From the NCBI GenBank assembly GCA_002792115.1, contig PFNQ01000013.1, positions 7,236-71,235 of the forward strand: a DNA stretch of 64,000 nt, read 5' to 3'. Numbering within the stretch: position 1 is the stretch's first letter; each line of letters opens with the position of its first letter. This stretch comes from Candidatus Woesearchaeota archaeon CG_4_10_14_0_2_um_filter_33_13 (GTDB taxonomy: Archaea > Nanobdellota > Nanobdellia > Woesearchaeales > GW2011-AR9). The position numbers and the translations under genes are program-made. The notes beneath the pieces were generated by a model. That model searched no databases. It saw only the letters and a program-made list of their open reading frames with translations, and was not told where the DNA came from. This document shows positions 20,357 to 44,278 of this stretch, in pieces.

Positions 20357-23260
20357 CTAGCAGTTGTAATCAACGATCCACGTTGAAATTTTCCCGCCAG
20401 TAAACTGTTGTACTTCATCAAACTTTTCAAAGCACTTCGTTCCAAGACCATCAAAAAAGAATAACTTGGTAAAGGTGCTGTACGCCAGCGACGTGTCAGA
20501 TAACAACGCAGCATACCCATTACCATTTGGAATCAGAATTAAAGATGAACCGATAGTCTGACCATCAAATTTTTGTTCTTTTAACTCTTTTCCTTGTACA
20601 TAAACTAAAGATGCTGGGGAAACATTTTGTCCGTTATTAGTTCTAACTTTAGCAATGGCTTCATTTAAATTGATATCTAATGTAATGGATCCTTGCTGAG
20701 TATTGATCTGGCAGGTTACATTTGCTGAACTACTATTCTGACATTGATTTAACCCAGAATGATAGCTTGGCCATGAAGCAATCCATTGATCGGCATCTGT
20801 GGTTTGTATTTCATAACGAATCCTGTCTGCTTCATCTTCAGTTAAGGAGAAATTTTTAGTTAAATAATTAATTGCATCATCTTTTTTCATATTTTTTGTA
20901 TTTTGATACATAACTGCTTTATCAAAATCCCAGCTTCCAAAATGTCCCCAAACTCCTGCTTTACCCACCATATCTTCTGAGGTGATGTAATAATCGGTTG
21001 GTGCTTCGCAGTGTGTGTATTGAATAACGGAAGCCACTTGATTAGCATTTAATCCATAATCATTTAAGGTTTCAATCGCAGCTTCTTTCTTTTCTACGAT
21101 TATTTTGTTGATTATCTTAATCTCTTTTGGCGTGTCATTGAAAATATTATCTAACTCTATGAATGCACTGTTTTGCCCGCAATTTAACATTCTGATTATG
21201 CCTACTGTTGTTTTTTCATCGCTTGTCAAAAGTGATTTCCCGACCCAATGGGCATCCCATCCAACTTGCATACCTCCATCAAAGGTTGTTGGTCGCTCAG
21301 CTATCGCCATAAACCAGTATCCAAAATCCCACCACGAAGTTATCACTGCTTCAGCGGGAGCTTCGCTATTGATCTTAGTTAAAGTGTTATGCCAAGCATC
21401 ATTCATCGCTGGTACAGAATTGTATGCAGTTGAATATCCTGCCATGCTTGGTTGAATTAATAGCACTCCTAACAATAAAAATACAACCACCTTTGAAATA
21501 GTTAAATTAAGATTTAGTTCTTTATTAGTCCAATTACTAATATAACTCCAAGCTAATCCCAAGAATGCACCGAATAATATTGCCACTATCGGTGCAACCA
21601 TTAAAATAAACCTAACTCCCCTTGTTGTAGTATATAATGCTATAGCTAACCAAAAAGATAAAATTAATGCAATCATCAAATTATTGTTTGATTTATCTTT
21701 AACATTTCTTAACATCAATAAAATAATTCCTACTATCGCTAGAGTAAAAATTAGTTTTCCTCCTACTTGGCTGATTACTTGTGAGAATGGAGCAACATTA
21801 AGCTCTGCTACTGTAGTTAAGATATTTGGCCATAAGGAATCTATTGCTACTGCCTTTAAGTGGATTAATGAATTTATTGGTTCAAACAATCCGCTGTAAA
21901 AAGAGTTAAACGAACTAAATATAGAAACAAAAAGTCCTGAACTTATGAGGTAGGTTCCAAATAGGGACACATTTGAGAAAAAATCATCTTTCTTAATTAG
22001 AGTTTTAAGAGCCTTAGAATTTCTAATTAATTCATAAGCAAAGTATGAAAGCATAGATACTGCAAATATGGAAAAGAAATACCACCAAGCTCCCCACACA
22101 AAACTAAGTAATCCTGTTGCTAAACCAGCTAAGACAGTCCAACCTAATTTCTTCTTTAAATCCTTGCAAGTAATCGCTTCAATTAATAACCACAAAATCA
22201 GTATTGGAAAGAAGACAACGTAAACATCTGTGTCTGAACTTTCTCCGGTGGTTCTGGAAACAAAAAAAGCTGAGACTGCAATTAAAATAGCAACAAAAAA
22301 TCCACCAACATTATTTTTAGTGATTTTTTTACCGATAAAGAATGCAGGAATAACTGTTAATGCTGAGAAGATAGTTCCTATTAAAAAGAAACTAAACATC
22401 AATGGTACGTCTGAAAAAGAACTTAAAAATCGATGTAAAAATGCTCCAAACCAGGTGTGAAAATTTCCCCCTTCTGGTGAACCAGTTGGGTAGGCTCGAT
22501 AAGAATCATAATACTTTCCATCTTTTATTGAATTACCCGGATGACCATTTTCTAATCTATATTCTGTTTGTCTGTAAAAATAATAAGGGTCAATTCCTAA
22601 CAGATATAAAGTTCCCTGATCATCTCTAAACTGATCTTTATATTGTTGTGATACTTGCTTAATATCATTATTAACCTGGTCCTTGTTTTTCTCTTTTAAT
22701 TTTTGCAATTCATTCTGGACTAATGCATCTCTGTTTTGTTGTGGCAAGTTAGGATACTGTTGATTGATCTGGGCGGTAACTTGATTTTGATAAAAATTAT
22801 TAACTGTATTGTCGGCCCATTCATCGGTTATTGACATTCTTAATGGCATGGTTCGTAGATAAACAGAAGCAAACATAGCAATTAAAATAAATAATGCGGG
22901 GATGATCCATTTAGCATTAGTTTTAGCAAAAGTGGTAATTTTTGAAAAATCTACAGAAAGTTCGTCATCATTAACTTCTTTTTTGTGATGTTTATGTTCC
23001 GGATGGGAATGTTTATCTTTATCAGAAGAAGTTAAGCTTTTAAAAAATCGTTTAGCTTTATTTTTTATCTCAGAAAAATCTATTGATAAATCCTCATTAT
23101 CCTTATGAAACTCTTTTTTAACAACTTCTACTTTCCCAAGAGTGATCGTTTTTTTGTCACTATGATGTTGCAAAGTGTCTTCTGTTTTTGTTTCTTCCTG
23201 CTCCTCAGTATTAGAATCAATCTTAATATCTTTAGCCAATTTTCCACCCCAATAATCCAT
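20357..23260 (-). CDS. aglB: Archaeal oligosaccharyltransferase AglB (STT3 family)
   Basis: Polytopic N-terminal domain with EL1 motif GIDPYYFYRQTE and catalytic SWWDFGYW (WWDYG) motif plus large C-terminal globular domain. Confidence 0.85.
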   Translation of the reverse strand: MDYWGGKLAKDIKIDSNTEEQEETKTEDTLQHHSDKKTITLGKVEVVKKEFHKDNEDLSIDFSEIKNKAKRFFKSLTSSDKDKHSHPEHKHHKKEVNDDELSVDFSKITTFAKTNAKWIIPALFILIAMFASVYLRTMPLRMSITDEWADNTVNNFYQNQVTAQINQQYPNLPQQNRDALVQNELQKLKEKNKDQVNNDIKQVSQQYKDQFRDDQGTLYLLGIDPYYFYRQTEYRLENGHPGNSIKDGKYYDSYRAYPTGSPEGGNFHTWFGAFLHRFLSSFSDVPLMFSFFLIGTIFSALTVIPAFFIGKKITKNNVGGFFVAILIAVSAFFVSRTTGESSDTDVYVVFFPILILWLLIEAITCKDLKKKLGWTVLAGLATGLLSFVWGAWWYFFSIFAVSMLSYFAYELIRNSKALKTLIKKDDFFSNVSLFGTYLISSGLFVSIFSSFNSFYSGLFEPINSLIHLKAVAIDSLWPNILTTVAELNVAPFSQVISQVGGKLIFTLAIVGIILLMLRNVKDKSNNNLMIALILSFWLAIALYTTTRGVRFILMVAPIVAILFGAFLGLAWSYISNWTNKELNLNLTISKVVVFLLLGVLLIQPSMAGYSTAYNSVPAMNDAWHNTLTKINSEAPAEAVITSWWDFGYWFMAIAERPTTFDGGMQVGWDAHWVGKSLLTSDEKTTVGIIRMLNCGQNSAFIELDNIFNDTPKEIKIINKIIVEKKEAAIETLNDYGLNANQVASVIQYTHCEAPTDYYITSEDMVGKAGVWGHFGSWDFDKAVMYQNTKNMKKDDAINYLTKNFSLTEDEADRIRYEIQTTDADQWIASWPSYHSGLNQCQNSSSANVTCQINTQQGSITLDINLNEAIAKVRTNNGQNVSPASLVYVQGKELKEQKFDGQTIGSSLILIPNGNGYAALLSDTSLAYSTFTKLFFFDGLGTKCFEKFDEVQQFTGGKISTWIVDYNC

Positions 23261-38774: not shown

Positions 38775-41700
38775 TTAACGTCTTTTTCTTTTTAAGGAAA
38801 CAATCAGGCCCATCAACACAGCAATAAATACTAATGCTACCATTATTGTTAATAATGATGTGTATGCAGTAGTATCCCTAAAAGAAGCTATTGTTTTCTG
38901 GCTTTGCACCTTCCTTACATCTAACTCATTTTGCAACTGCAAAGCTAACTGATCTTTGTTAACATATTGGTTAACCGCTTGTGTGGTTGAACTTTGTGCG
39001 TAACAATCTGTTAACTCTAATGTTACATCAGTACTATCTTCCAATATGTCATTATCCCTGTAAACCTTTACTGTAAGTGGATATGATCCCGCTTTAGCAT
39101 CTTCCAAATTAAGATTGAACGTGGCTTTGTAATCGTTGTCGCCACTGGAGTACTTTTCCAAGTCTATAGCAGTTTTACTCAAACTTAAGTCTAAAGCAGA
39201 GTTTTCTACAACAATCTTAACATCATCTTCATTACTCTTTCCAATATTCTCAACCATTACTTGCATAGTGGTTTGTCTTAAACATTGTAAAGTGCTAGAG
39301 GACAAGGAAGCAGAGTTGATGATAACTTGGTGTGTCTCTAAATCTACATCTACAGTTTTAATTTCTGTTGTAGTATGTGTAGACCCATCATCTGCTTCTC
39401 CTTCTATAGTTAGTTCTAATGTGTAAGTATCTTCATCAATGGTTTCTCCTTTAAGGTCAAAATCAACTGTAAAGGTTTCACTGTCTCCATCTCTAATATC
39501 ATTTTCATCAGATTCTTCTTCAAGGTCTTCTCCGTCAACATCTAGAATCTTAACCATCACAAACACATTATTAATGTCTTCACTATACTCATTGTTAACT
39601 TTAATTTCTATCTCATTTAGGTCTTGCAATGAAAGTTTTCCAGAGGATTTGCCATTAATCTTGATGTTATCAACTGTTAAGTAACTTTTTGGACTTAAGT
39701 AAATATCTTGCTCACTTGAATCCTCGTTGCTAGTAACATTTATTCTTCCAATCTGATGTTGTCCAGAATCTTCTCCTTCAGGAACGTAAAAGTTAAAGGT
39801 TAAGGAAAATTGTTGTCCTGCACTCAAACTTACTGGAACGCTTCCAGAAAAATTTGCTTTGTACTTGCTATTAATATCAAGTAGTTCTACTGATAATCCT
39901 GTTAATGATTGGTAAGTTCCAGTATTCTTAATAGTAACTTGAACACTTCCACTTTTTCCTTTATCAACGTTGCTTATAACGATCGGCGATATATCTATTG
40001 TAGCAGGTTGGTCTTCTACAACAAGATATGTAGAAAAACCTGTTACTGTAAAGATTATTTGTCCATTACTGTTATTGGTTATAACACAAATGGATTCTGG
40101 ACAAGTACTAAATTCGCTAGCATCATTATCAAACCCTTCTGCACGAAGAATCCTCGGGTTAGTAAATGATTTTTTTATAGTAATTGTTGCTGGAACATTT
40201 AATTCTGGTGCAGCATTATCACTAGTGTCGACTGAAACTTTATTAACATTAACCACAATAACTTCATCTATATTCAAGATTCCCGTCAAATCTAGATTGC
40301 CGTCAAAAACAATCTTTGCAAAGTTATTCTCAATTGTGAACTCATCTACACTTGCAGGATCTCTTATCTTACCATCAAAACTACCATTCCAATAACCTTC
40401 TGGAATTAATCCAGATTCTGAAACCGGTTCATCAGTGACGATATAAGTCCAAACTTGGGTATACTCTCCATTTATTTCCGCGTAAACCTCAAATTCACCA
40501 ACTTGATCAAATGGCAAGGGGTAATTTACTCCTTGGTAAACAGCTTCATCATTTACATACCACATTACTCTTTGATCAAAACCATCCTCTGCTAAAGTGA
40601 CACTTAATTCATCATCTGGTTGTCCTAACCCTATAATCCAGGTGTCTTCTTCTGGAGCATATGATAATAAACAATTATTTCTTTTTACTGTTGTTGACAA
40701 CACATTACTATATGTGGAATCGTCTCTGTACAACCCTTTAACATAAATAGTGTTATCTCCTTCACTTAAATCTTCAGTTTTTATCCATATTTTTATTAGT
40801 GCAGCAGTTGCTGAATCTATGGCTGGAACTTCTTTAACAATCTCTAAATCTCCTGATTGAATCAGCAATTTAAGATCGTCCTCTGTGTTTTTGCCAAGAT
40901 TGGTATACTCAATATTTAACCAAGCCCCTCCCCGACAAGTTAATTCTGATTGTCCTAAAGTTACGGCATTAATGATAATATCTGCGGCATCTTTGCTAAC
41001 TTCTAAATTAAAATTAAATAAATCCTTTCTCAGAATGGATGGATTTTGATAATCCTTACCAGTTATGATCAAATCAACGTTAAACACCTGCTCTACTGCT
41101 ACTAATGGTACATCAAAATCGATTGAAATAGTTTTTGTTTCTCCTGGATTTAAATTTGTGTTAAATTCATTTTCAACAACTGCACCATTTACATCCAATT
41201 TGTAAGCCAGTCCAGTTAACTTATAATTTAGGTGATTATTAACTTCAACACTAAGAGTTACATGGTCCAGTGGTTTTAACTCTTGGGCTAAATCTCCTGA
41301 ATTGACAGTTTCTCCATTTACTTTAAGAGATTTGATCTCCAGTGCGGGGGTAACAGATATATTAACTGTTTTTTGTACAACACCACCATAACTATCATCA
41401 ACAGAGATGGTGCAGCTTGCGTCCTTTTTCCAGTTTACACCTAACTTTAATTGTAATTGTTCATTTGTAATAACCTTACACAAAACTCCGCCCTTTTGGG
41501 AAATTTTTGTATAAATCAAATCGTCTCCGTCAGCATCAGAGAATAAGTCAGTAAGTTCTAGGATTATTAATTCATTATTTACTTCTGCTAAGTTCTGGGA
41601 TAGAATTGATCCAACAGGTTTTCTATTATTTGCAGAATTTTTTGTCGCTTCATTAGATATAATCCATTCTATATTGCCGTCATGGATACGAGAAATAAGT

Positions 41701-42119
41701 TCGTCTGTTAATAGAGTATCTGTGTGTGTTGCAATGGCTGCATGAGTGTAATCTCCGTAAGTAAGGGCGTCAATGAAACCAGACGGAGAATTCTTAAGAA
41801 CAATTTTGTCCCCAGAATCAGTTAGTTTATTATTTAATTCTAAAATTAGGTGACTATGTCCATTAATTTTTCCAGTAATGACGGTATCTCCTAAGTTGGT
41901 TCTAATAAATCCAGTACCTAAGGCATCATAATCAACAGAATCTACTCCGGTATTGTATAACTCGATCCATTCATTTCCTGTGCTTGGGTCAACCATTATT
42001 TCGTTAATGACCACGTCAGTATCCATACCTAATGCTGCTTTGGTTGTTAATATCAAAGCAACAATTACAAAAAGAATTGTTAGAATTTTAGTTTGTTTCA
42101 TTTTGTTTTTATACCTCAA
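38775..42119 (-). CDS. Large secreted surface (S-layer-like) protein with N-terminal lamin-tail domain and C-terminal TM anchor
   Basis: Signal peptide; LTD signature VVINEIMVDPSTGNEWIELYNTG; many N-x-S/T sequons; C-term hydrophobic helix + KRKRR. Confidence 0.6.
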   Translation of the reverse strand: MRYKNKMKQTKILTILFVIVALILTTKAALGMDTDVVINEIMVDPSTGNEWIELYNTGVDSVDYDALGTGFIRTNLGDTVITGKINGHSHLILELNNKLTDSGDKIVLKNSPSGFIDALTYGDYTHAAIATHTDTLLTDELISRIHDGNIEWIISNEATKNSANNRKPVGSILSQNLAEVNNELIILELTDLFSDADGDDLIYTKISQKGGVLCKVITNEQLQLKLGVNWKKDASCTISVDDSYGGVVQKTVNISVTPALEIKSLKVNGETVNSGDLAQELKPLDHVTLSVEVNNHLNYKLTGLAYKLDVNGAVVENEFNTNLNPGETKTISIDFDVPLVAVEQVFNVDLIITGKDYQNPSILRKDLFNFNLEVSKDAADIIINAVTLGQSELTCRGGAWLNIEYTNLGKNTEDDLKLLIQSGDLEIVKEVPAIDSATAALIKIWIKTEDLSEGDNTIYVKGLYRDDSTYSNVLSTTVKRNNCLLSYAPEEDTWIIGLGQPDDELSVTLAEDGFDQRVMWYVNDEAVYQGVNYPLPFDQVGEFEVYAEINGEYTQVWTYIVTDEPVSESGLIPEGYWNGSFDGKIRDPASVDEFTIENNFAKIVFDGNLDLTGILNIDEVIVVNVNKVSVDTSDNAAPELNVPATITIKKSFTNPRILRAEGFDNDASEFSTCPESICVITNNSNGQIIFTVTGFSTYLVVEDQPATIDISPIVISNVDKGKSGSVQVTIKNTGTYQSLTGLSVELLDINSKYKANFSGSVPVSLSAGQQFSLTFNFYVPEGEDSGQHQIGRINVTSNEDSSEQDIYLSPKSYLTVDNIKINGKSSGKLSLQDLNEIEIKVNNEYSEDINNVFVMVKILDVDGEDLEEESDENDIRDGDSETFTVDFDLKGETIDEDTYTLELTIEGEADDGSTHTTTEIKTVDVDLETHQVIINSASLSSSTLQCLRQTTMQVMVENIGKSNEDDVKIVVENSALDLSLSKTAIDLEKYSSGDNDYKATFNLNLEDAKAGSYPLTVKVYRDNDILEDSTDVTLELTDCYAQSSTTQAVNQYVNKDQLALQLQNELDVRKVQSQKTIASFRDTTAYTSLLTIMVALVFIAVLMGLIVSLKRKRR

Positions 42120-42202
42120 GTTTGATGATTACACAAATCTCATGTTTAAACATCAATCACACAGAACAATCAAATAAAAAATAAAAAAGATTAACTTAAT
42201 AC

Positions 42203-43585
42203 TTATTTGAGTAACACCACCAAAAAGACAATAATCAATGCTACTACTAAAATAATTGCAATGATTATTGCTCCCACAAGGAAATCATTTGCGGAGTAAG
42301 AGTGTTCTGTGGTGGAAACAACAGTAGTTGAAGACGTTGGTTGATTACTCGTTGGGGTGTTTGTGTTACTTGCAGTAGTTTGATTCAACACTGTAACGAT
42401 AACTTCAGAGTCATCTGCAGTAGTTGGTGTGGTGGGGTTTATTGTTACTTGACATTTTCCAACATTTAAAGAAACTCTTTCATAATCAGCATTTTCATCT
42501 AAGTCAATGTAAGCGTTTATATCAAAATCGTATTTCCCCTCTTTAACTCCCACTAACGGAATGGTAACTGTTTTCTTCCAAGTGTTAACTTTATCACTAA
42601 ACTCGTTAATGACCAAGTTCTTAATGTTTTCATTAATTTTTAAAGCTTGGTTGTAAATAGCAACAGCAGCAGCTTTTTGATCATCAGTGCCATAGTTTGT
42701 TACTTCTACAGTTAAGAAAACTTCTTCATCACAAGTTGTAACTGTTTCAGGTTGAAATTCAGCTTTGACTATTCTTAAATCGTCTCTAACTCGATCGACT
42801 TCAATAGTTAAAGTCTTTTCAATCTTGTATTCTACATTTTTTTCATCTATTGCAACCAAAGTAATGTCTAATTCATACTTCCCTTCATCAACATCTTCAT
42901 CAGGTGTGAAAGAGATTTCAAATGAATCATCTGTATCTGCGTCTAAAGCATCTAAATCCCAAGAATCATCAATGTCCTGGCTCAGGTCATCATTATCATC
43001 AATAGTTAAAGTAATATCATCAAACGTTCCATATTTATATTTGTCATTAAATGAATTTGCGTATTTAAATGTGAATGTAATTTCTTCCCCAGCAAGAACT
43101 GTTTGATCTAAGTCCCAAGAACTTTCTTCATCATTACCATCAAACTTATCTGTTTCACTTCCATCTTCACTTTTGTAATCTACTTCTAATCTATCAAAGT
43201 CTAGCATCATGGCAGTGTTTTGTTCTAAACTAGCACTATCTGTATTGGCAGCATTACCTTTTTCTTCAACTTTTAAAGTCCCGATATTTTCAGTTCCTGC
43301 GTCTTTATCATGAGGAACCTTTATGGTATAAGAAACAGCCTGGGTGGAGTTGGCCGCAATAACAACTTCTTTTGTGTCTGCAACATATTTTGTGCTAGGT
43401 AAACCACTTGCTGAAACTACAATCGTTAAATTGCTTGCATCCGGATTGTTGACAGTAAAACTTGCTTGTCCTAAAACATAATCTTTATAATCACCATCAT
43501 CAAAATCCTGATAATCCACACTTAGATTAACTTTGTCTTCAACAATGTTCAAAGCAGAAACAACATTAACAACTAGTAAAAGCAT
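42203..43585 (-). CDS. Secreted acidic surface protein with Thr/Ser-rich stalk and C-terminal TM anchor
   Basis: N-terminal hydrophobic signal, Asp-rich repeats, TTPTTADDS...TSNQPTSSTTVVSTT linker then AIIIAIILVVALIIVFLVVLLK. Confidence 0.5.
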   Translation of the reverse strand: MLLLVVNVVSALNIVEDKVNLSVDYQDFDDGDYKDYVLGQASFTVNNPDASNLTIVVSASGLPSTKYVADTKEVVIAANSTQAVSYTIKVPHDKDAGTENIGTLKVEEKGNAANTDSASLEQNTAMMLDFDRLEVDYKSEDGSETDKFDGNDEESSWDLDQTVLAGEEITFTFKYANSFNDKYKYGTFDDITLTIDDNDDLSQDIDDSWDLDALDADTDDSFEISFTPDEDVDEGKYELDITLVAIDEKNVEYKIEKTLTIEVDRVRDDLRIVKAEFQPETVTTCDEEVFLTVEVTNYGTDDQKAAAVAIYNQALKINENIKNLVINEFSDKVNTWKKTVTIPLVGVKEGKYDFDINAYIDLDENADYERVSLNVGKCQVTINPTTPTTADDSEVIVTVLNQTTASNTNTPTSNQPTSSTTVVSTTEHSYSANDFLVGAIIIAIILVVALIIVFLVVLLK

Positions 43586-43762
43586 TAATATTCCTAATAA
43601 TATTTTAGTTTTAATTTTAACCCACCCCAGATAGTTTTTATTATTGAGTAGTCAATTTGTTTTTTAAAGATTTATATACTACAGAATATAGTTTAAAGTT
43701 TATCTGGGTTTTCGTCAATAAATAGTGACTAAAACTATAAAAAAGAAAAAAGGGGGAGTGAT

Positions 43763-44278
43763 TTATTTATGTCCCATGTAAAAGAACTTTTCTATTGACA
43801 CATCAGAATCTACATAATTCCCTGATCTTGGGTGGGAACCATCTTGTTTTTGGGCTGCTCCTTGAGTTACCTGAGATTGTGCAGGCTGGGATTGTGTTTT
43901 AAGTTCTCCAGTGTTAATATCTCTGGCTGGGCCGGTAGCATATGGTCTATTCTTAAGATTAGTAATGTCTTTTTCTAAAGATTCAATTTTATCTTGAAAT
44001 TCCTTAAATTTTTTAATCACAAAAGCAGTATTTTTCTCTAGAATATCTTTGATTTGGTCTTGTGATAAATTATTCATGCCGGCCGGGTGGGGATTATCTA
44101 TAGTAGGAACTTCTTCCATTCTTTGTCTAATTTGTGCATAATCGTCTACATCTCTATTTCGAAAAATTGTTTCTGCTTTAGCAACGGCTTCTTCTCTGTC
44201 AGCGGCTAAACCTTGTCGCATTAAGTCTAGAGCAAGATTATTTACTTTTTGAATTCTTTCTACATCCATATTAATCAA
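43763..44278 (-). CDS. Hypothetical protein (helical N-term, Gln-rich linker)
   Basis: ORF with slightly higher GC; no recognisable motif. Confidence 0.3.
   Translation of the reverse strand: MINMDVERIQKVNNLALDLMRQGLAADREEAVAKAETIFRNRDVDDYAQIRQRMEEVPTIDNPHPAGMNNLSQDQIKDILEKNTAFVIKKFKEFQDKIESLEKDITNLKNRPYATGPARDINTGELKTQSQPAQSQVTQGAAQKQDGSHPRSGNYVDSDVSIEKFFYMGHK

What the first reader, a model, noticed from the sequence alone, without database searches (positions are those of the whole stretch)
38775..43585. Pair of large secreted proteins with C-terminal TM anchors; one carries a lamin-tail domain
The 1,114-aa protein has a signal peptide, an N-terminal LTD signature (VVINEIMVDPSTGNEWIELYN), dense N-glycosylation sequons and a C-terminal helix followed by KRKRR.

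The 460-aa neighbour is very acidic, with Asp-rich repeats, a Thr/Ser stalk and a C-terminal anchor.

These are candidate S-layer/cell-surface proteins and the likely substrates of the adjacent glycosylation machinery. PGF-CTERM is absent, so anchoring is by TM helix rather than archaeosortase.
Basis: seen in the sequence. Interest (0 to 1): 0.5.

Follow-up and report, generated by a model that had tools for sequence, protein, structure and literature searches.

The report
Conserved archaeal surface-protein pair, Nup98-like domain
Two neighbouring genes of an uncultured Woesearchaeota archaeon encode a conserved pair of membrane-anchored cell-coat proteins, and the larger one contains a clear relative of the self-cutting domain of the eukaryotic nuclear-pore protein Nup98, which has apparently not been described in prokaryotes.

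Summary
Both ORFs are real and intact, and both encode exported type-I membrane proteins. The source is a Woesearchaeota MAG.

A signal peptide, an LTD, a C-terminal helix plus KRKRR, a very acidic neighbour and a Thr/Ser stalk are all present.

Two claims fail:
- N-glycosylation sequons are not dense. They are depleted: 5 observed against 13.5 expected, and about 0.46 of expectation across the family.
- No Asp-rich repeats are detectable.

What the tools add:
- The two proteins are paralogues over a three-β-sandwich module.
- The small-then-large gene order is conserved in 48 of 50 testable loci from Woesearchaeota/Nanoarchaeota genomes. All named relatives are "hypothetical protein".
- The nearest curated family is NCBIfam NF033506, "putative S-layer protein". 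Both proteins score below its cutoff.
- The LTD is a variable add-on, found in about 11 of 54 orthologues.
- A Nup98-type S59 autoproteolytic domain links the variable distal part to the conserved base. Its F-S-x-Y cleavage motif is nearly invariant.

My reading is a two-subunit, TM-anchored envelope coat, possibly with self-cleavage of the large subunit. Lattice formation, cleavage and the anchoring chemistry are all untested. It is a new variant of a known kind, of moderate to high interest.

The parts
43647..43680 (-). Conserved promoter-like block AGTATATAAATCTTTAAAAAACAAATTGACTACT, with an archaeal TATA-like element, upstream of the small-subunit gene.
   Evidence: The block is nearly identical in the orthologous loci L002 and L003, although the flanking coding sequences are only 56-71% identical at protein level. 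Promoter function is inferred, not tested.
43621..43628 (-). Shine-Dalgarno-like GGGGTGGG preceding the proposed ATT start of the small-subunit gene.
   Evidence: Conserved in L002 and L003. It lies 5 nt upstream of ATT 43615.
42203..43615 (-). Gene B, the small subunit. It is 470 codons from the proposed ATT start at 43615, or 460 from ATG 43585. Layout: signal peptide, three beta-sandwich domains, Thr/Ser-rich stalk, TM helix, terminal Lys.
   Evidence: - ORF.
- ATT start.
- Family of 444-492-aa orthologues at 31-71% identity, all 'hypothetical protein'.
- AF2 model, pLDDT 81.9.
43553..43615 (-). Signal peptide of B, (M/I)KTKILLGILMLLLVVNVVSA.
   Evidence: Translation. Orthologues carry equivalent K-rich n-regions and h-regions.
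42458..43552 (-). Three tandem beta-sandwich domains of B (residues about 12-124, 128-264 and 270-376 of the 460-aa form). They are paralogous to the membrane-proximal module of A.
   Evidence: - AF2, pLDDT mostly above 90.
- BLASTP of A763-1039 against B74-378, E=5e-8.
- NF033506 at 31.6 bits.
- Invariant Cys285/Cys378 pair.
42296..42442 (-). Thr/Ser/Pro/Asn-rich disordered stalk of B. It ends in the conserved E-x-x-Y-[ST]-x-x-D-F juxtamembrane motif.
   Evidence: pLDDT 28-40. Sequence. Motif conservation.
42209..42292 (-). C-terminal TM helix of B. The protein ends ...VVLLK.
   Evidence: Hydropathy. AF2 helix 432-459. The ending LLK is conserved in 9/10 aligned orthologues.
38775..42101 (-). 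Gene A, the large subunit. It is 1108 codons from ATG 42101. The maximal ORF from TTG 42119 is 1114 codons.
   Evidence: - ORF.
- Start.
- 228 representative clusters at E<1e-30, all aligned through their C-termini.
- AF2 model, pLDDT 83.5.
42027..42101 (-). Signal peptide of A, MKQTKILTILFVIVALILTTKAALG.
   Evidence: Hydropathy. Conserved ...TAKAALG/A in homologues. Coordinates checked.
41652..42017 (-). Lamin-tail domain (LTD), part of the variable outward N-terminal extension.
   Evidence: - Pfam PF00932 at 36.2 bits against cutoff 34.3.
- AF2 beta-sandwich, pLDDT 66-82.
- An LTD-like motif is present in only about 11/54 orthologues.
- Only 32% identical to the closest relative.
41352..41600 (-). 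Cadherin-like / Big_9-like domain, variable and modelled with low confidence.
   Evidence: Pfam Big_9 E=7.8e-4 and Cadherin_5 E=0.036, both below cutoff. AF2 pLDDT 60-70.
40434..41342 (-). Three beta-sandwich (CARDB/Ig-like) domains of the distal arm, residues 254-556.
   Evidence: AF2 pLDDT above 90. Alignment occupancy about 0.8 among 49 homologues.
40014..40370 (-). Nup98-type autoproteolytic domain (peptidase S59-like), residues 578-696.
   Evidence: - Pfam PF04096 at 31.5 bits in the whole protein and 37.1 bits for the isolated segment, against cutoff 28.4.
- 27/30 homologous segments hit PF04096.
- A family profile hits only Nup98/Nup116/Nup145 in the PDB, best E=3e-7.
40032..40037 (-). 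Phe689-Ser690 (1108-aa numbering). This is the dipeptide aligned with the scissile Phe-Ser of the Nup98 HFS site, and the predicted self-cleavage point.
   Evidence: - Profile alignment places FtVeGFStYkVvE on FKVSHFSKYGLQD.
- Conservation: F 41/43, S 41/43, T 37/43, Y 39/43.
- Coordinates checked.
- Cleavage itself is inferred.
39009..39998 (-). Conserved membrane-proximal module of three beta-sandwich domains (residues 702-1031). This is the universally conserved core of the family.
   Evidence: - Alignment occupancy 0.96-0.98.
- AF2 pLDDT 90-97.
- NF033506 match over 623-1045.
- Paralogous to B.
- Nearly invariant Cys940/Cys1033.
38910..38957 (-). Gln-rich alpha-helix, KDQLALQLQNELDVRK. Family consensus is LAxQLQQQLxA. 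It is a possible coiled-coil stalk.
   Evidence: AF2 helix 1049-1064. Consensus.
38862..38885 (-). Invariant juxtamembrane motif SFRDTTAY. Family pattern is S-F-R-[DE]-[ST]-x-x-Y.
   Evidence: Column counts: S 37/47, F 43/47, R 47/47, D/E 42/47, S/T 45/47, Y 47/47. Present in 47/54 orthologues from reference genomes.
38778..38861 (-). TM helix TSLLTIMVALVFIAVLMGLIVSL and cytoplasmic basic tail KRKRR.
   Evidence: Hydropathy. AF2 helix 1078-1104. Coordinates checked.
43763..44278 (-). Conserved 171-aa gene of unknown function, always found between the TFB gene and the B-A pair. It has no signal peptide, and whether it belongs to the system is uncertain.
   Evidence: No Pfam hit. Orthologues sit at the same position in L002, L003 and L004, with the conserved C-terminus HPRSGNY..DVSIEKFFYMG.K.

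Best explanation
The two genes form a conserved operon-like unit, small subunit B followed by large subunit A. It encodes the two paralogous subunits of the proteinaceous cell coat of a Woesearchaeota (Nanoarchaeota, Woesearchaeales-type) archaeon. The coat is an S-layer or an S-layer-like canopy.

SHOWN
- Both proteins have a Sec-type signal peptide, chains of beta-sandwich domains, a very acidic ectodomain and a single C-terminal TM helix with a short basic cytoplasmic end.
- They share a homologous three-domain module placed next to the membrane.
- The gene pair, its order and its tight spacing are conserved across dozens of species-level genomes.
- The large subunit is modular: [signal peptide]-[lineage-variable distal arm]-[Nup98-type S59 domain]-[conserved three-domain base]-[Gln-rich helix]-[SFR(D/E)xxxY]-[TM]-[basic tail]. 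In this genome the distal arm is LTD + cadherin-like + three Ig-like domains.

INFERRED
- The conserved three-domain modules of A and B pack side by side to form the coat. They are held a fixed distance above the membrane by their stalks, a helical one in A and a disordered Thr/Ser-rich one in B.
- The fast-evolving distal arm of A points outward and mediates contacts with the environment or a host cell.
- The S59 domain probably cuts its own chain between Phe689 and Ser690 by an N-O acyl shift, as Nup98 does. That would leave a 73-kDa distal fragment held non-covalently on a 46-kDa anchored stub. The stub has the same size and architecture as subunit B and as the naturally short A-type proteins of other lineages.
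- The proteins stay membrane-anchored by their TM helices unless an unrecognised sortase acts on the conserved juxtamembrane motif.
For: ANATOMY
- ORFs, hydropathy and pI.
- AF2 models with pLDDT 81.9 and 83.5 show 3 and 9 beta-rich domains, a stalk and a TM helix.

PARALOGY
- A763-1039 aligns to B74-378 at E=5e-8.
- Both proteins match NF033506 'putative S-layer protein'.
- A Cys pair is conserved in the last domain of both.

CONSERVATION OF THE PAIR
- The same order occurs in L001-L005.
- In a scan of species-representative genomes, 54 A-type genes were found. Of these, 48 have a B-type gene directly upstream on the same strand, with gaps of -17 to 120 nt and ten 4-nt overlaps.
- Four of the six exceptions start at a contig edge.
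- Usually there is one pair per genome.
- Flanking housekeeping synteny (TFB, HIT, tRNA methyltransferase, dUTPase) is conserved.
- A promoter-like block is conserved.

MODULARITY
- 228 representative clusters at E<1e-30 all align through their C-termini, with total lengths of 270-2300 aa.
- Alignment occupancy is 0.97 for residues 700-1108, 0.8 for 240-700 and 0.3-0.4 for the N-terminal 240.
- A-type lengths run from 422 to 1884 aa. The S59 domain is present in 36/54 and an LTD-like motif in 11/54.

OUTWARD-FACING, FAST-EVOLVING ARM
Identity to the closest relative:
- dUTPase 86%
- tRNA methyltransferase 74%
- B 71%
- A core 48%
- A LTD 32%

S59 DOMAIN
- Pfam score above cutoff.
- The PDB profile search returns nucleoporins only, with F-S aligned on the scissile F-S.
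- The F-S-T-Y motif is the most conserved stretch outside the core.
- HFS is the conserved autocleavage site, Ser-to-Ala blocks cleavage, and an HFS-less orthologue is uncleaved: PMC4483485.

PRECEDENTS
- SlaA/SlaB are adjacent, bicistronic genes. SlaB is built of beta-sandwiches, a coiled coil and a C-terminal TM helix: PMC5744192.
- Microbial GAIN ('MAIN') domains self-cleave and release surface proteins: bioRxiv 10.64898/2026.05.12.724683.
Against: - No direct evidence of abundance, lattice formation or location. No organism of this group is cultured.
- The fold searches return only generic tandem Ig-like hits. Haloferax csg is rank 34 and SbsB rank 25, both with TM-scores below 0.2.
- Both proteins score below the NF033506 cutoff: 93.9 and 31.6 against 110.
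- A survey preprint assigns Nanoarchaeota S-layers to an MSTP-like beta-sandwich class (10.1101/2024.05.28.596244).
  - Neither protein hits the Pfam S-layer/DUF1608 model at E<=1.
  - So the true lattice protein could be encoded elsewhere.
- The His of the Nup98 HFS triplet is Gly here and in 34/43 homologues. The conserved G-F-S-T-Y could be a purely structural tight turn.
- 18/54 A-type proteins lack the S59 domain altogether, so cleavage cannot be essential to the coat.
- Archaeal S-layer proteins are typically heavily N-glycosylated, whereas these are sequon-poor.
Confidence: 0.6

Rival explanations
1. The pair are host-attachment adhesins, or a cell-contact apparatus of an episymbiotic DPANN archaeon, rather than a cell-wide coat. 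The membrane-anchored base would display a variable adhesive arm (LTD, cadherin-like, He_PIG, Ig-like domains) used to bind host cells. The actual S-layer, if any, would be another protein.
For: - The distal arm is built from domains typical of adhesins and varies greatly in length and content between species. A-type proteins run from 422 to 1884 aa, and He_PIG, Big_9 and cadherin-like hits occur.
- The arm evolves much faster than its neighbours.
- A preprint predicts MSTP-like S-layer proteins for Nanoarchaeota. Neither protein hits the Pfam DUF1608/S-layer model.
Against: - The conserved part is the base, not the arm.
- Short A-type forms of 422-443 aa have no arm at all yet keep the pairing with B. 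This fits a structural coat better than an adhesin.
- The pair is single-copy and sits in conserved housekeeping synteny, not in a variable island.
- The closest curated family is named a putative S-layer protein.
- The two readings are not exclusive. An S-layer subunit can carry an adhesive arm.
Confidence: 0.25
2. The Nup98-like domain is a non-catalytic structural beta-sandwich. The large subunit stays a single polypeptide, and the conserved G-F-S-T-Y is only a tight-turn and hydrophobic-packing motif.
For: - The His of the HFS triplet is replaced by Gly in the window protein and in 34/43 homologues.
- Eukaryotic orthologues without a recognisable HFS are uncleaved (PMC4483485).
- Phe and Tyr are plausible core-packing residues, and Gly is typical of turns.
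- 18/54 family members do without the domain.
Against: - Ser690 is kept in 41/43 and Thr691 in 37/43 sequences that are otherwise 30-50% identical. This is unusual for a solvent-exposed turn.
- The scissile pair aligns exactly with that of Nup98.
- Two homologues even carry H-F-S and H-F-T.
- The domain always sits exactly at the junction between the variable arm and the conserved base. The predicted stub equals the size of the natural short forms.
- Other self-cleaving modules work with Gly before the nucleophile. From my own knowledge, not tested here: the SEA domain cleaves at G|SVVV.
Confidence: 0.5
3. The conserved C-terminal signature S-F-R-[DE]-[ST]-x-x-Y + TM helix + basic tail is a sorting signal. 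An as yet unrecognised archaeosortase/exosortase-like enzyme would remove the helix and attach the protein to a lipid or to another envelope component. The mature proteins would then not be TM-anchored.
For: - The layout is tripartite and identical in logic to PGF-CTERM, PEP-CTERM and LPXTG signals.
- Arg and Tyr are invariant in 47/47 sequences, although the rest of the tail varies.
- B-type proteins carry their own conserved motif, E-x-x-Y-[ST]-x-x-D-F, before the helix.
- In Haloferax the TM-anchored S-layer precursor is processed in this way (PMC5744192).
Against: - No known CTERM model matches at E<=10.
- No archaeosortase/exosortase-like gene is among the window ORFs scanned.
- The motif contains no Pro/Gly turn like the known signals.
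- The TM helix itself is well conserved in B (…ALIIVFxVVLLK). That suggests it is retained and functional.
- A conserved juxtamembrane motif can equally be a subunit contact.
Confidence: 0.15

Closest known systems
Sulfolobales SlaA/SlaB two-component S-layer
   Same: - Two adjacent, co-oriented genes encode a large outer subunit and a smaller subunit of about 45-50 kDa.
[quoted passage not shown]
- That is the architecture predicted for the base of A and, with a disordered stalk instead, for B.
   Different: - No detectable sequence relationship: no Pfam hit and no PDB sequence hit at E<=1.
- Here both subunits are TM-anchored and are paralogues of each other.
- The gene order is small then large.
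- The large subunit carries a Nup98-type domain.
- Sequons are depleted, whereas SlaA/SlaB are described as highly glycosylated (PMC5744192).
NCBIfam NF033506 'PACE-CTERM-PROT, putative S-layer protein'
   Same: It shares the homologous multi-beta-sandwich module. A residues 623-1045 match model positions 26-478, and B residues 40-405 match 127-495. It also shares the C-terminal single-helix anchor and occurs in the same group of uncultured archaea.
   Different: - Scores of 93.9 and 31.6 bits are below the curated cutoff of 110. No A- or B-type protein tested reaches it.
- A true member, L060:6097-8028 at 177.5 bits, has a different C-terminal tail (...LLWILGDIILVLVALYFLRMLFKK). It has no SFR(D/E)xxxY motif.
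- The function of NF033506 itself is only 'putative'.
Nup98/Nup145N autoproteolytic domain (peptidase family S59, Pfam PF04096)
   Same: - Sequence profile above the Pfam cutoff.
- Reciprocal profile hits to Nup98/Nup116/Nup145 only.
- Predicted fold superposes at 2.4-2.8 A with 21-22% identity.
- The Phe-Ser-x-Tyr of the cleavage site aligns residue for residue.
- The domain lies between two functionally distinct parts of one polypeptide, as in Nup98-Nup96.
   Different: - It is extracellular, in an archaeal type-I membrane protein, not a nucleoporin.
- The His of the HFS triplet is Gly.
- It has a conserved C-x4-C pair absent from the nucleoporin alignment.
- Cleavage has not been demonstrated.
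- No paper in the searchable library describes a prokaryotic member.
Microbial GAIN ('MAIN') domain surface proteins (Brogan & Rudner, bioRxiv 2026)
   Same: The concept is the same. A self-cleaving beta-rich domain, next to a cell-envelope anchor and fused to variable adhesion domains, cuts in a beta-turn. The two products stay associated non-covalently, which allows release of the distal part.
   Different: It is a different fold and family: GAIN, not S59. No GAIN hit was found here. Autoproteolysis was demonstrated for MAIN but is only predicted here.
Haloferax volcanii S-layer glycoprotein (PGF-CTERM / archaeosortase ArtA substrate)
   Same: It is an acidic, multi-Ig-like-domain archaeal surface protein with a Thr/Ser-rich membrane-proximal stalk and a C-terminal hydrophobic helix (PMC5744192). 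It shows weak generic fold similarity: 7ptp_A is rank 34.
   Different: - It has no PGF motif and no match to the PGF-CTERM model.
- The system here has two subunits instead of one.
- These proteins are sequon-poor.

Membership tests
Lamin-tail domain (Pfam PF00932) | Profile score at or above the Pfam gathering cutoff | tested here: met
   36.2 bits against a cutoff of 34.3, residues 34-122 of the 1114-aa ORF, profile positions 6-108 of 109. The margin is narrow.
Lamin-tail domain (Pfam PF00932) | Ig-like beta-sandwich fold | tested here: inconclusive
   AF2 predicts beta strands over residues 29-150, but with only moderate confidence (pLDDT 66-82). No LTD structure appeared among the listed fold hits.
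Peptidase S59 / Nup98 autoproteolytic domain (Pfam PF04096) | Profile score at or above the Pfam gathering cutoff | tested here: met
   - 31.5 bits in the whole protein and 37.1 bits for the isolated segment, against a cutoff of 28.4.
- 27 of 30 homologous segments match, best E=8.3e-11, with no competing family.
Peptidase S59 / Nup98 autoproteolytic domain (Pfam PF04096) | Same fold as solved Nup98/Nup145N domains | tested here: met
The family profile hits only nucleoporin APDs in PDB sequences, best E=3e-7.
Peptidase S59 / Nup98 autoproteolytic domain (Pfam PF04096) | His-Phe-Ser cleavage triplet with Ser as nucleophile (PMC4483485) | tested here: not met
   Phe-Ser is present and aligned with the scissile pair (F 41/43, S 41/43). 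The His is Gly in the window protein and in 34/43 homologues, and His in only 2/43. The full triplet is therefore not met, although the nucleophile and P1 residue are.
Peptidase S59 / Nup98 autoproteolytic domain (Pfam PF04096) | Actual self-cleavage of the polypeptide | not testable with these tools
   This needs recombinant protein or proteomics.
NCBIfam NF033506 (PACE-CTERM-PROT, putative S-layer protein) | Whole-protein score at or above the curated cutoff of 110 bits | tested here: not met
   - A scores 93.9 bits and B 31.6 bits.
- Other family members score 25-83 bits.
- A genuine member found in passing scores 177.5 bits.
The pair is related to this family but not a member.
PGF-CTERM / archaeosortase substrates (and other known CTERM sorting signals) | Recognisable sorting motif (e.g. 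Pro-Gly-Phe) immediately before a C-terminal TM helix and basic tail, matching the curated model | tested here: not met
   Neither isolated C-terminal tail nor any full-length family member hits a CTERM model at E<=10. Neither tail contains PGF. A different conserved motif, SFR[DE]xxxY, occupies that position.
PGF-CTERM / archaeosortase substrates (and other known CTERM sorting signals) | Cognate archaeosortase/exosortase encoded in the genome | tested here: inconclusive
   None was found among the window ORFs scanned with Pfam. Only 64 kb of the genome is available.
Archaeal S-layer protein (generic functional class) | Exported, acidic, multi-domain protein with a membrane-anchoring device | tested here: met
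   Signal peptides, pI 4.05-4.27, 3 and 9 beta-rich domains, and C-terminal TM helices.
Archaeal S-layer protein (generic functional class) | Forms a regular two-dimensional lattice covering the cell; among the most abundant proteins | not testable with these tools
   There is no culture, proteome or tomogram. Structure-prediction jobs were exhausted before any multimer test. The only literature hint is that genes annotated as S-layer proteins are among the top-expressed Woesearchaeota genes in one lake study. Their identity with this family could not be checked (PMC11606122).
SlaA/SlaB-type two-component S-layer | Adjacent, co-transcribed genes for the two subunits | tested here: met
   A B-type gene lies directly upstream of the A-type gene in 48 of 50 testable loci, with gaps of -17 to 120 nt and ten 4-nt overlaps. 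Co-transcription itself is inferred.
SlaA/SlaB-type two-component S-layer | Sequence homology to SlaA or SlaB | tested here: not met
   No Pfam or NCBIfam hit to Sla families. No PDB sequence hit at E<=1. No Sla structure appeared among the listed fold hits.
MSTP-like (Methanosarcinales S-layer tile protein, DUF1608) S-layer proteins, proposed for Nanoarchaeota | Match to the DUF1608 / S-layer Pfam model or to the MA0829 structure | tested here: not met

The most novel reading that the evidence does not exclude
The large subunit contains a catalytically active prokaryotic member of the Nup98 (S59) autoproteolytic domain family. It would cut itself between Phe689 and Ser690, so that a variable 73-kDa outer arm rides non-covalently on a 46-kDa membrane-anchored stub and can be shed or exchanged.

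This would be a new, widespread class of self-cleaving archaeal surface proteins, parallel to GAIN/MAIN and SEA modules. It would also give a prokaryotic, extracellular origin for a signature domain of the eukaryotic nuclear pore. Strikingly, that domain sits in the same polypeptide as a lamin-tail domain.
Probability: 0.35. Interest if true: 0.8.

Novelty: new variant of a known kind. Interest (0 to 1): 0.58.

Why it matters
- Cell envelope of an uncultured group. Woesearchaeota and their relatives are among the most widespread uncultured archaea, and nothing is known experimentally about their envelope. This analysis nominates a specific, conserved and so far unannotated gene pair as its main protein component. 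It also gives exact domain boundaries, motifs and predicted fragments that metaproteomics, cryo-ET or recombinant work can test directly.
- Nuclear-pore evolution. If the Nup98-like domain is active, it adds a third family of self-cleaving modules to microbial surface biology. It also supplies an archaeal relative for a nuclear-pore domain whose origin is unexplained.
- Two smaller observations are testable oddities: family-wide purging of N-glycosylation sequons in an organism that encodes AglB, and a conserved AUU start codon on the small-subunit gene.

Tried and rejected
- Foldseek of both AF2 models against the PDB gave only generic tandem Ig-like hits: ciliary central-pair proteins, integrins, alpha-2-macroglobulins. 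TM-scores were below 0.35 and rmsd values large. These hits are uninformative about function.
- The afdb50 fold library was unavailable.
- phmmer of the whole large protein against PDB sequences found nothing at E<=1. Only the domain profile was informative.
- The word-indexed homology search badly under-reported the large-protein family, with 4 and 22 hits. The exhaustive search found 2290.
- A literature search for 'PACE-CTERM' found nothing. Searches for prokaryotic S59/PF04096/Nucleoporin2 found only eukaryotic papers. Rosenblum & Blobel 1999 is not held.
- The supplements of the Woesearchaeota expression paper are not held. Its 'S-layer protein genes' therefore could not be matched to this family.
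- Tandem Repeats Finder found no repeats in either gene, so 'Asp-rich repeats' was rejected.
- The sigma-70 promoter/terminator scan is not applicable to archaea and showed no enrichment over shuffles. It was ignored.
- The idea that the LTD defines the family was considered and rejected. It is present in only about 11/54 orthologues and is the least conserved part.
- Membership in NF033506 was considered and rejected because the scores are below the cutoff.
- Degraded or frameshifted genes were considered and rejected. Both are full-length relative to homologues.

Full report
**Numbering.** Residue numbers for the large protein refer to the 1108-aa form that starts at ATG 42101. Add 6 for the 1114-codon ORF.

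**1. The observation**

The window is AT-rich (about 32% GC) and archaeal. It carries TFB, AglB/STT3 and AMP phosphorylase-type genes. The small protein is identical to a GenBank entry from [quoted passage not shown].

Both ORFs exist as stated, at 38775..42119 and 42203..43585 on the minus strand. The following features are all present:
- a signal peptide, the LTD signature and a C-terminal helix plus KRKRR in the large protein;
- a very acidic small protein (pI 4.05, 12.4% Asp);
- a disordered Thr/Ser/Pro-rich stalk and a C-terminal helix in the small protein.

Two statements fail.

- "Dense N-glycosylation sequons" is wrong.
  - There are 5 N-X-S/T sites in 1108 residues. That is the background density of the window, against 13.5 expected from composition.
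  - Over 54 large-type and 48 small-type orthologues, observed/expected is 0.45 and 0.48. For 44 other window ORFs it is 0.78.
  - The sites are not positionally conserved.
- "Asp-rich repeats" are not detectable as repeats.

The start codons need correction.

- The large gene most likely starts at ATG 42101, giving 1108 aa. The TTG at 42119 overlaps its GAGGT ribosome-binding site.
- The small gene most likely starts at ATT 43615.
  - The ten in-frame codons upstream of the annotated ATG read IKTKILLGIL, which completes a normal signal peptide.
  - The string GGGGTGGGT(T/C)AAA-ATT-AAA is conserved in two orthologous loci. One of them has no canonical start at all before the signal peptide.
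  - Of 45 orthologues, 14 lack any ATG/GTG/TTG within 14 codons upstream of the hydrophobic core.

**2. What it is**

*The two proteins are paralogues.* Residues 763-1039 of the large protein align with 74-378 of the small one (E=5e-8). Both match the same NCBIfam model, NF033506 "putative S-layer protein", at 93.9 and 31.6 bits. Both scores are below the curated cutoff of 110.

*Predicted structures.* The AlphaFold2 models are confident (pLDDT 81.9 and 83.5).
- The small protein has three beta-sandwich domains, a 49-residue disordered stalk and a TM helix.
- The large protein has, in order:
  - signal peptide;
  - LTD (29-150);
  - a weakly modelled cadherin/Big_9-like domain (168-250);
  - three beta-sandwiches (254-556);
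  - a distinct domain at 578-696;
  - three more beta-sandwiches (702-1031);
  - a Gln-rich helix (1049-1064);
  - a TM helix (1078-1104).

*The pair is conserved.*
- The small protein has a compact family of 444-492-aa orthologues. In every contig examined, one of these is followed on the same strand by a large protein of the second family.
- A scan of species-representative genomes returned 69 loci. Nearly all are labelled Woesearchaeota, Nanoarchaeota or Nanoarchaeia.
  - Many carry the record title "uncultured Methanosarcinales".
  - I take those titles to be mislabelled because they share the same locus. I did not check this.
- Of 54 large-type genes, 48 have a small-type gene immediately upstream. 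Gaps are -17 to 120 nt and ten are 4-nt overlaps. Four of the six exceptions begin at a contig edge.
- The surrounding genes are conserved too: TFB, HIT, a 171-aa unknown, tRNA methyltransferase and dUTPase. So is a TATA-containing block upstream of the small gene.
- Every named relative is a "hypothetical protein".

*The large protein is modular.*
- An exhaustive search found 2290 relatives, 228 of them at E<1e-30. All align through their C-termini, and total lengths range from 270 to 2300 aa.
- Alignment occupancy is about 0.97 for residues 700-1108, 0.8 for 240-700 and 0.3-0.4 for the first 240.
- In reference genomes, large-type proteins range from 422 to 1884 aa. An LTD-like motif occurs in only 11 of 54.
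- Identity to the closest relative falls in this order: dUTPase 86%, tRNA methyltransferase 74%, small subunit 71%, large-subunit core 48%, LTD 32%.
- The LTD is therefore a lineage-specific ornament on a fast-evolving outer arm, not the defining feature.

*The Nup98-like domain.* Residues 578-696 match Pfam PF04096, "Nup98-96 autopeptidase S59", above its cutoff (31.5 bits in context and 37.1 alone, against 28.4). Further support:
- 27 of 30 homologous segments match the same model, and no other family competes.
- A profile of the archaeal segments hits only Nup98, Nup116 and Nup145 in the PDB (best E=3e-7). It aligns FtVeGFStYkVvE on FKVSHFSKYGLQD, so the archaeal Phe-Ser falls on the scissile Phe-Ser.
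- The motif F-T-V-x-G-F-S-T-Y is the most conserved stretch outside the core (F689 41/43, S690 41/43, T691 37/43, Y692 39/43). The Nup98 His is Gly in 34/43 and His in 2/43.
- In nucleoporins, HFS is the conserved autocleavage site. Ser-to-Ala blocks cleavage, and an orthologue lacking HFS is uncleaved (PMC4483485).
- The domain is present in 36 of 54 large-type proteins and absent from the short forms. In the window protein it sits at the junction between the variable arm and the conserved base.
- Predicted cleavage would give a 72.9-kDa distal fragment and a 46.3-kDa anchored stub. The stub is about the size of the mature small subunit (49.7 kDa) and of the natural 422-443-aa short forms.

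*C-terminal signatures.*
- Large-type proteins carry S-F-R-[DE]-[ST]-x-x-Y (R and Y 47/47), followed by the helix and a basic tail.
- Small-type proteins carry E-x-x-Y-[ST]-x-x-D-F before a well-conserved helix that ends …LLK.
- No known CTERM sorting model matches.
- A genuine NF033506 member found in passing (177.5 bits) has yet another tail.

*Genomic context.* Window positions 1-31 kb hold a large glycosylation cluster: GT4 and GT2 enzymes, a flippase, sugar-nucleotide enzymes, AglB and GT-C proteins. It is separated from the pair by 7.5 kb of housekeeping genes. No archaeosortase-like gene was seen among the window ORFs scanned.

**3. How it most likely works**

- *Shown:* two exported, acidic, TM-tailed paralogues encoded by a conserved gene pair, and a modular large subunit with a Nup98-type domain at the arm/base junction.
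- *Inferred:*
  - The homologous three-domain modules of the two subunits assemble into the cell coat above the membrane.
  - The arm of the large subunit projects outward and diversifies.
  - The S59 domain may cut the chain at Phe689|Ser690, leaving the arm held by strand complementation as in Nup98-Nup96. I put this at about 0.4-0.5.
  - Anchoring is by the TM helices unless the conserved juxtamembrane motifs are unrecognised sorting signals. I put processing at about 0.15.
- *Rivals:* an adhesin or host-contact role instead of a cell-wide coat; a non-catalytic S59 domain; sortase-type processing.
- *Main counter-evidence to the coat model:*
  - There are no abundance or lattice data.
  - Fold hits are only generic.
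  - A preprint assigns Nanoarchaeota S-layers to an MSTP-like class, which these proteins do not visibly match.

**4. Comparison with known systems**

- Functionally it is closest to the Sulfolobales SlaA/SlaB two-gene S-layer. SlaB is built of beta-sandwiches, a coiled coil and a C-terminal TM helix, and the genes are adjacent and bicistronic (PMC5744192). There is no sequence homology, both subunits here are anchored, and they are paralogous.
- By sequence it is closest to NF033506, but below the cutoff, so it is a sister family and not a member.
- The internal domain is a structural and sequence member of the S59 fold family with an incomplete catalytic triplet.
- The concept of a self-cleaving module releasing a surface arm has a recent precedent in microbial GAIN/MAIN domains.
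- I found no paper describing a prokaryotic S59 domain. The library is incomplete, so this is not proof of novelty. The Pfam hit is already present in precomputed annotations.

**5. Verdict**

This is a real, intact, conserved and unannotated surface-protein pair. Its glycosylation argument is wrong and its anchoring conclusion is premature.

The finding is a new variant of a known kind, a two-subunit TM-anchored archaeal coat. It contains one surprising element, the Nup98-type domain with a preserved cleavage dipeptide. That element makes a specific and inexpensive experiment worthwhile.

Noticed in passing
window 43613-43615 (minus strand); also L002:1625-1660 and L003:7905-8003: The small-subunit gene appears to start at a non-canonical ATT (AUU) codon, 5 nt after a conserved GGGGTGGG Shine-Dalgarno-like element. 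In L003 the whole signal peptide lies upstream of the first canonical start. 14 of 45 orthologues have no ATG/GTG/TTG within 14 codons upstream of the signal-peptide core, and the in-frame string G-W-V-K-I-K recurs in many. Gene callers therefore truncate these proteins.
   Followed up: yes
window 38775-43615 and orthologues in L001-L054: N-X-S/T sequons are depleted to about 0.45-0.48 of the composition-based expectation in both protein families. The ratio is 0.78 for other ORFs of the window. This holds even though the window encodes AglB and a large glycosylation cluster. The cause is unexplained; one possibility is selection against glycans at packing interfaces.
   Followed up: partly
window 43763-44278 (minus strand): A 171-aa protein with no Pfam match is conserved directly upstream of the pair in L002, L003 and L004, always between the TFB gene and the pair. 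It has an N-terminal MDVERIQKVNNLALDL... and an invariant C-terminal HPRSGNY..DVSIEKFFYMG.K. It has no signal peptide. Its function, and any link to the pair, are unknown.
   Followed up: partly
window 1-31243: A glycosylation cluster of about 31 kb. It contains several GT4 and GT2 glycosyltransferases, an FkbM methyltransferase, sugar-nucleotide enzymes, a B12-radical SAM enzyme, an FGGY kinase, a Wzx-like flippase, AglB/STT3 (20357-23260), a UbiA prenyltransferase, two PMT_2/GT-C proteins and a thioredoxin-like protein.
   Followed up: partly
window 42120-42202 (intergenic, minus strand): The 83-nt spacer between the two genes begins with a T-rich tract (TCTTTTTTATTTTTTATTT) right after the stop of the small gene and contains a TTTAAACA element. 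In other lineages the two genes overlap by 4 nt. This could mean partial termination or an internal promoter that sets the subunit ratio in this lineage. It was not tested.
   Followed up: no
L060:6097-8028; also L065, L068: These are genuine or near members of NCBIfam NF033506. L060 scores 177.5 bits. They carry a different conserved C-terminal tail (…[IL]FWI[LI]xD[IL]ILL…LFxK), presumably the 'PACE-CTERM' the model is named after. This shows a wider superfamily of TM-tailed surface proteins in these archaea, with lineage-specific tails.
   Followed up: partly
L049 (Candidatus Gottesmanbacteria MAG LCFP01000021.1), L058 (Alphaproteobacteria MAG) and many loci titled 'uncultured Methanosarcinales archaeon': The same archaeal gene pair occurs on contigs filed under bacterial MAGs or under Methanosarcinales. 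L049 is nearly identical to the Woesearchaeota locus L047. This most likely reflects binning contamination or placeholder taxonomy in the public records.
   Followed up: no
window 40085-40102 (Cys667 and Cys672 of the large protein): The archaeal Nup98-like domains carry an invariant C-x4-C pair, the only invariant columns of the domain alignment. The eight cysteines of the large protein fall in four same-domain pairs (208/230, 389/477, 667/672, 940/1033), which suggests extracellular disulfides.
   Followed up: no
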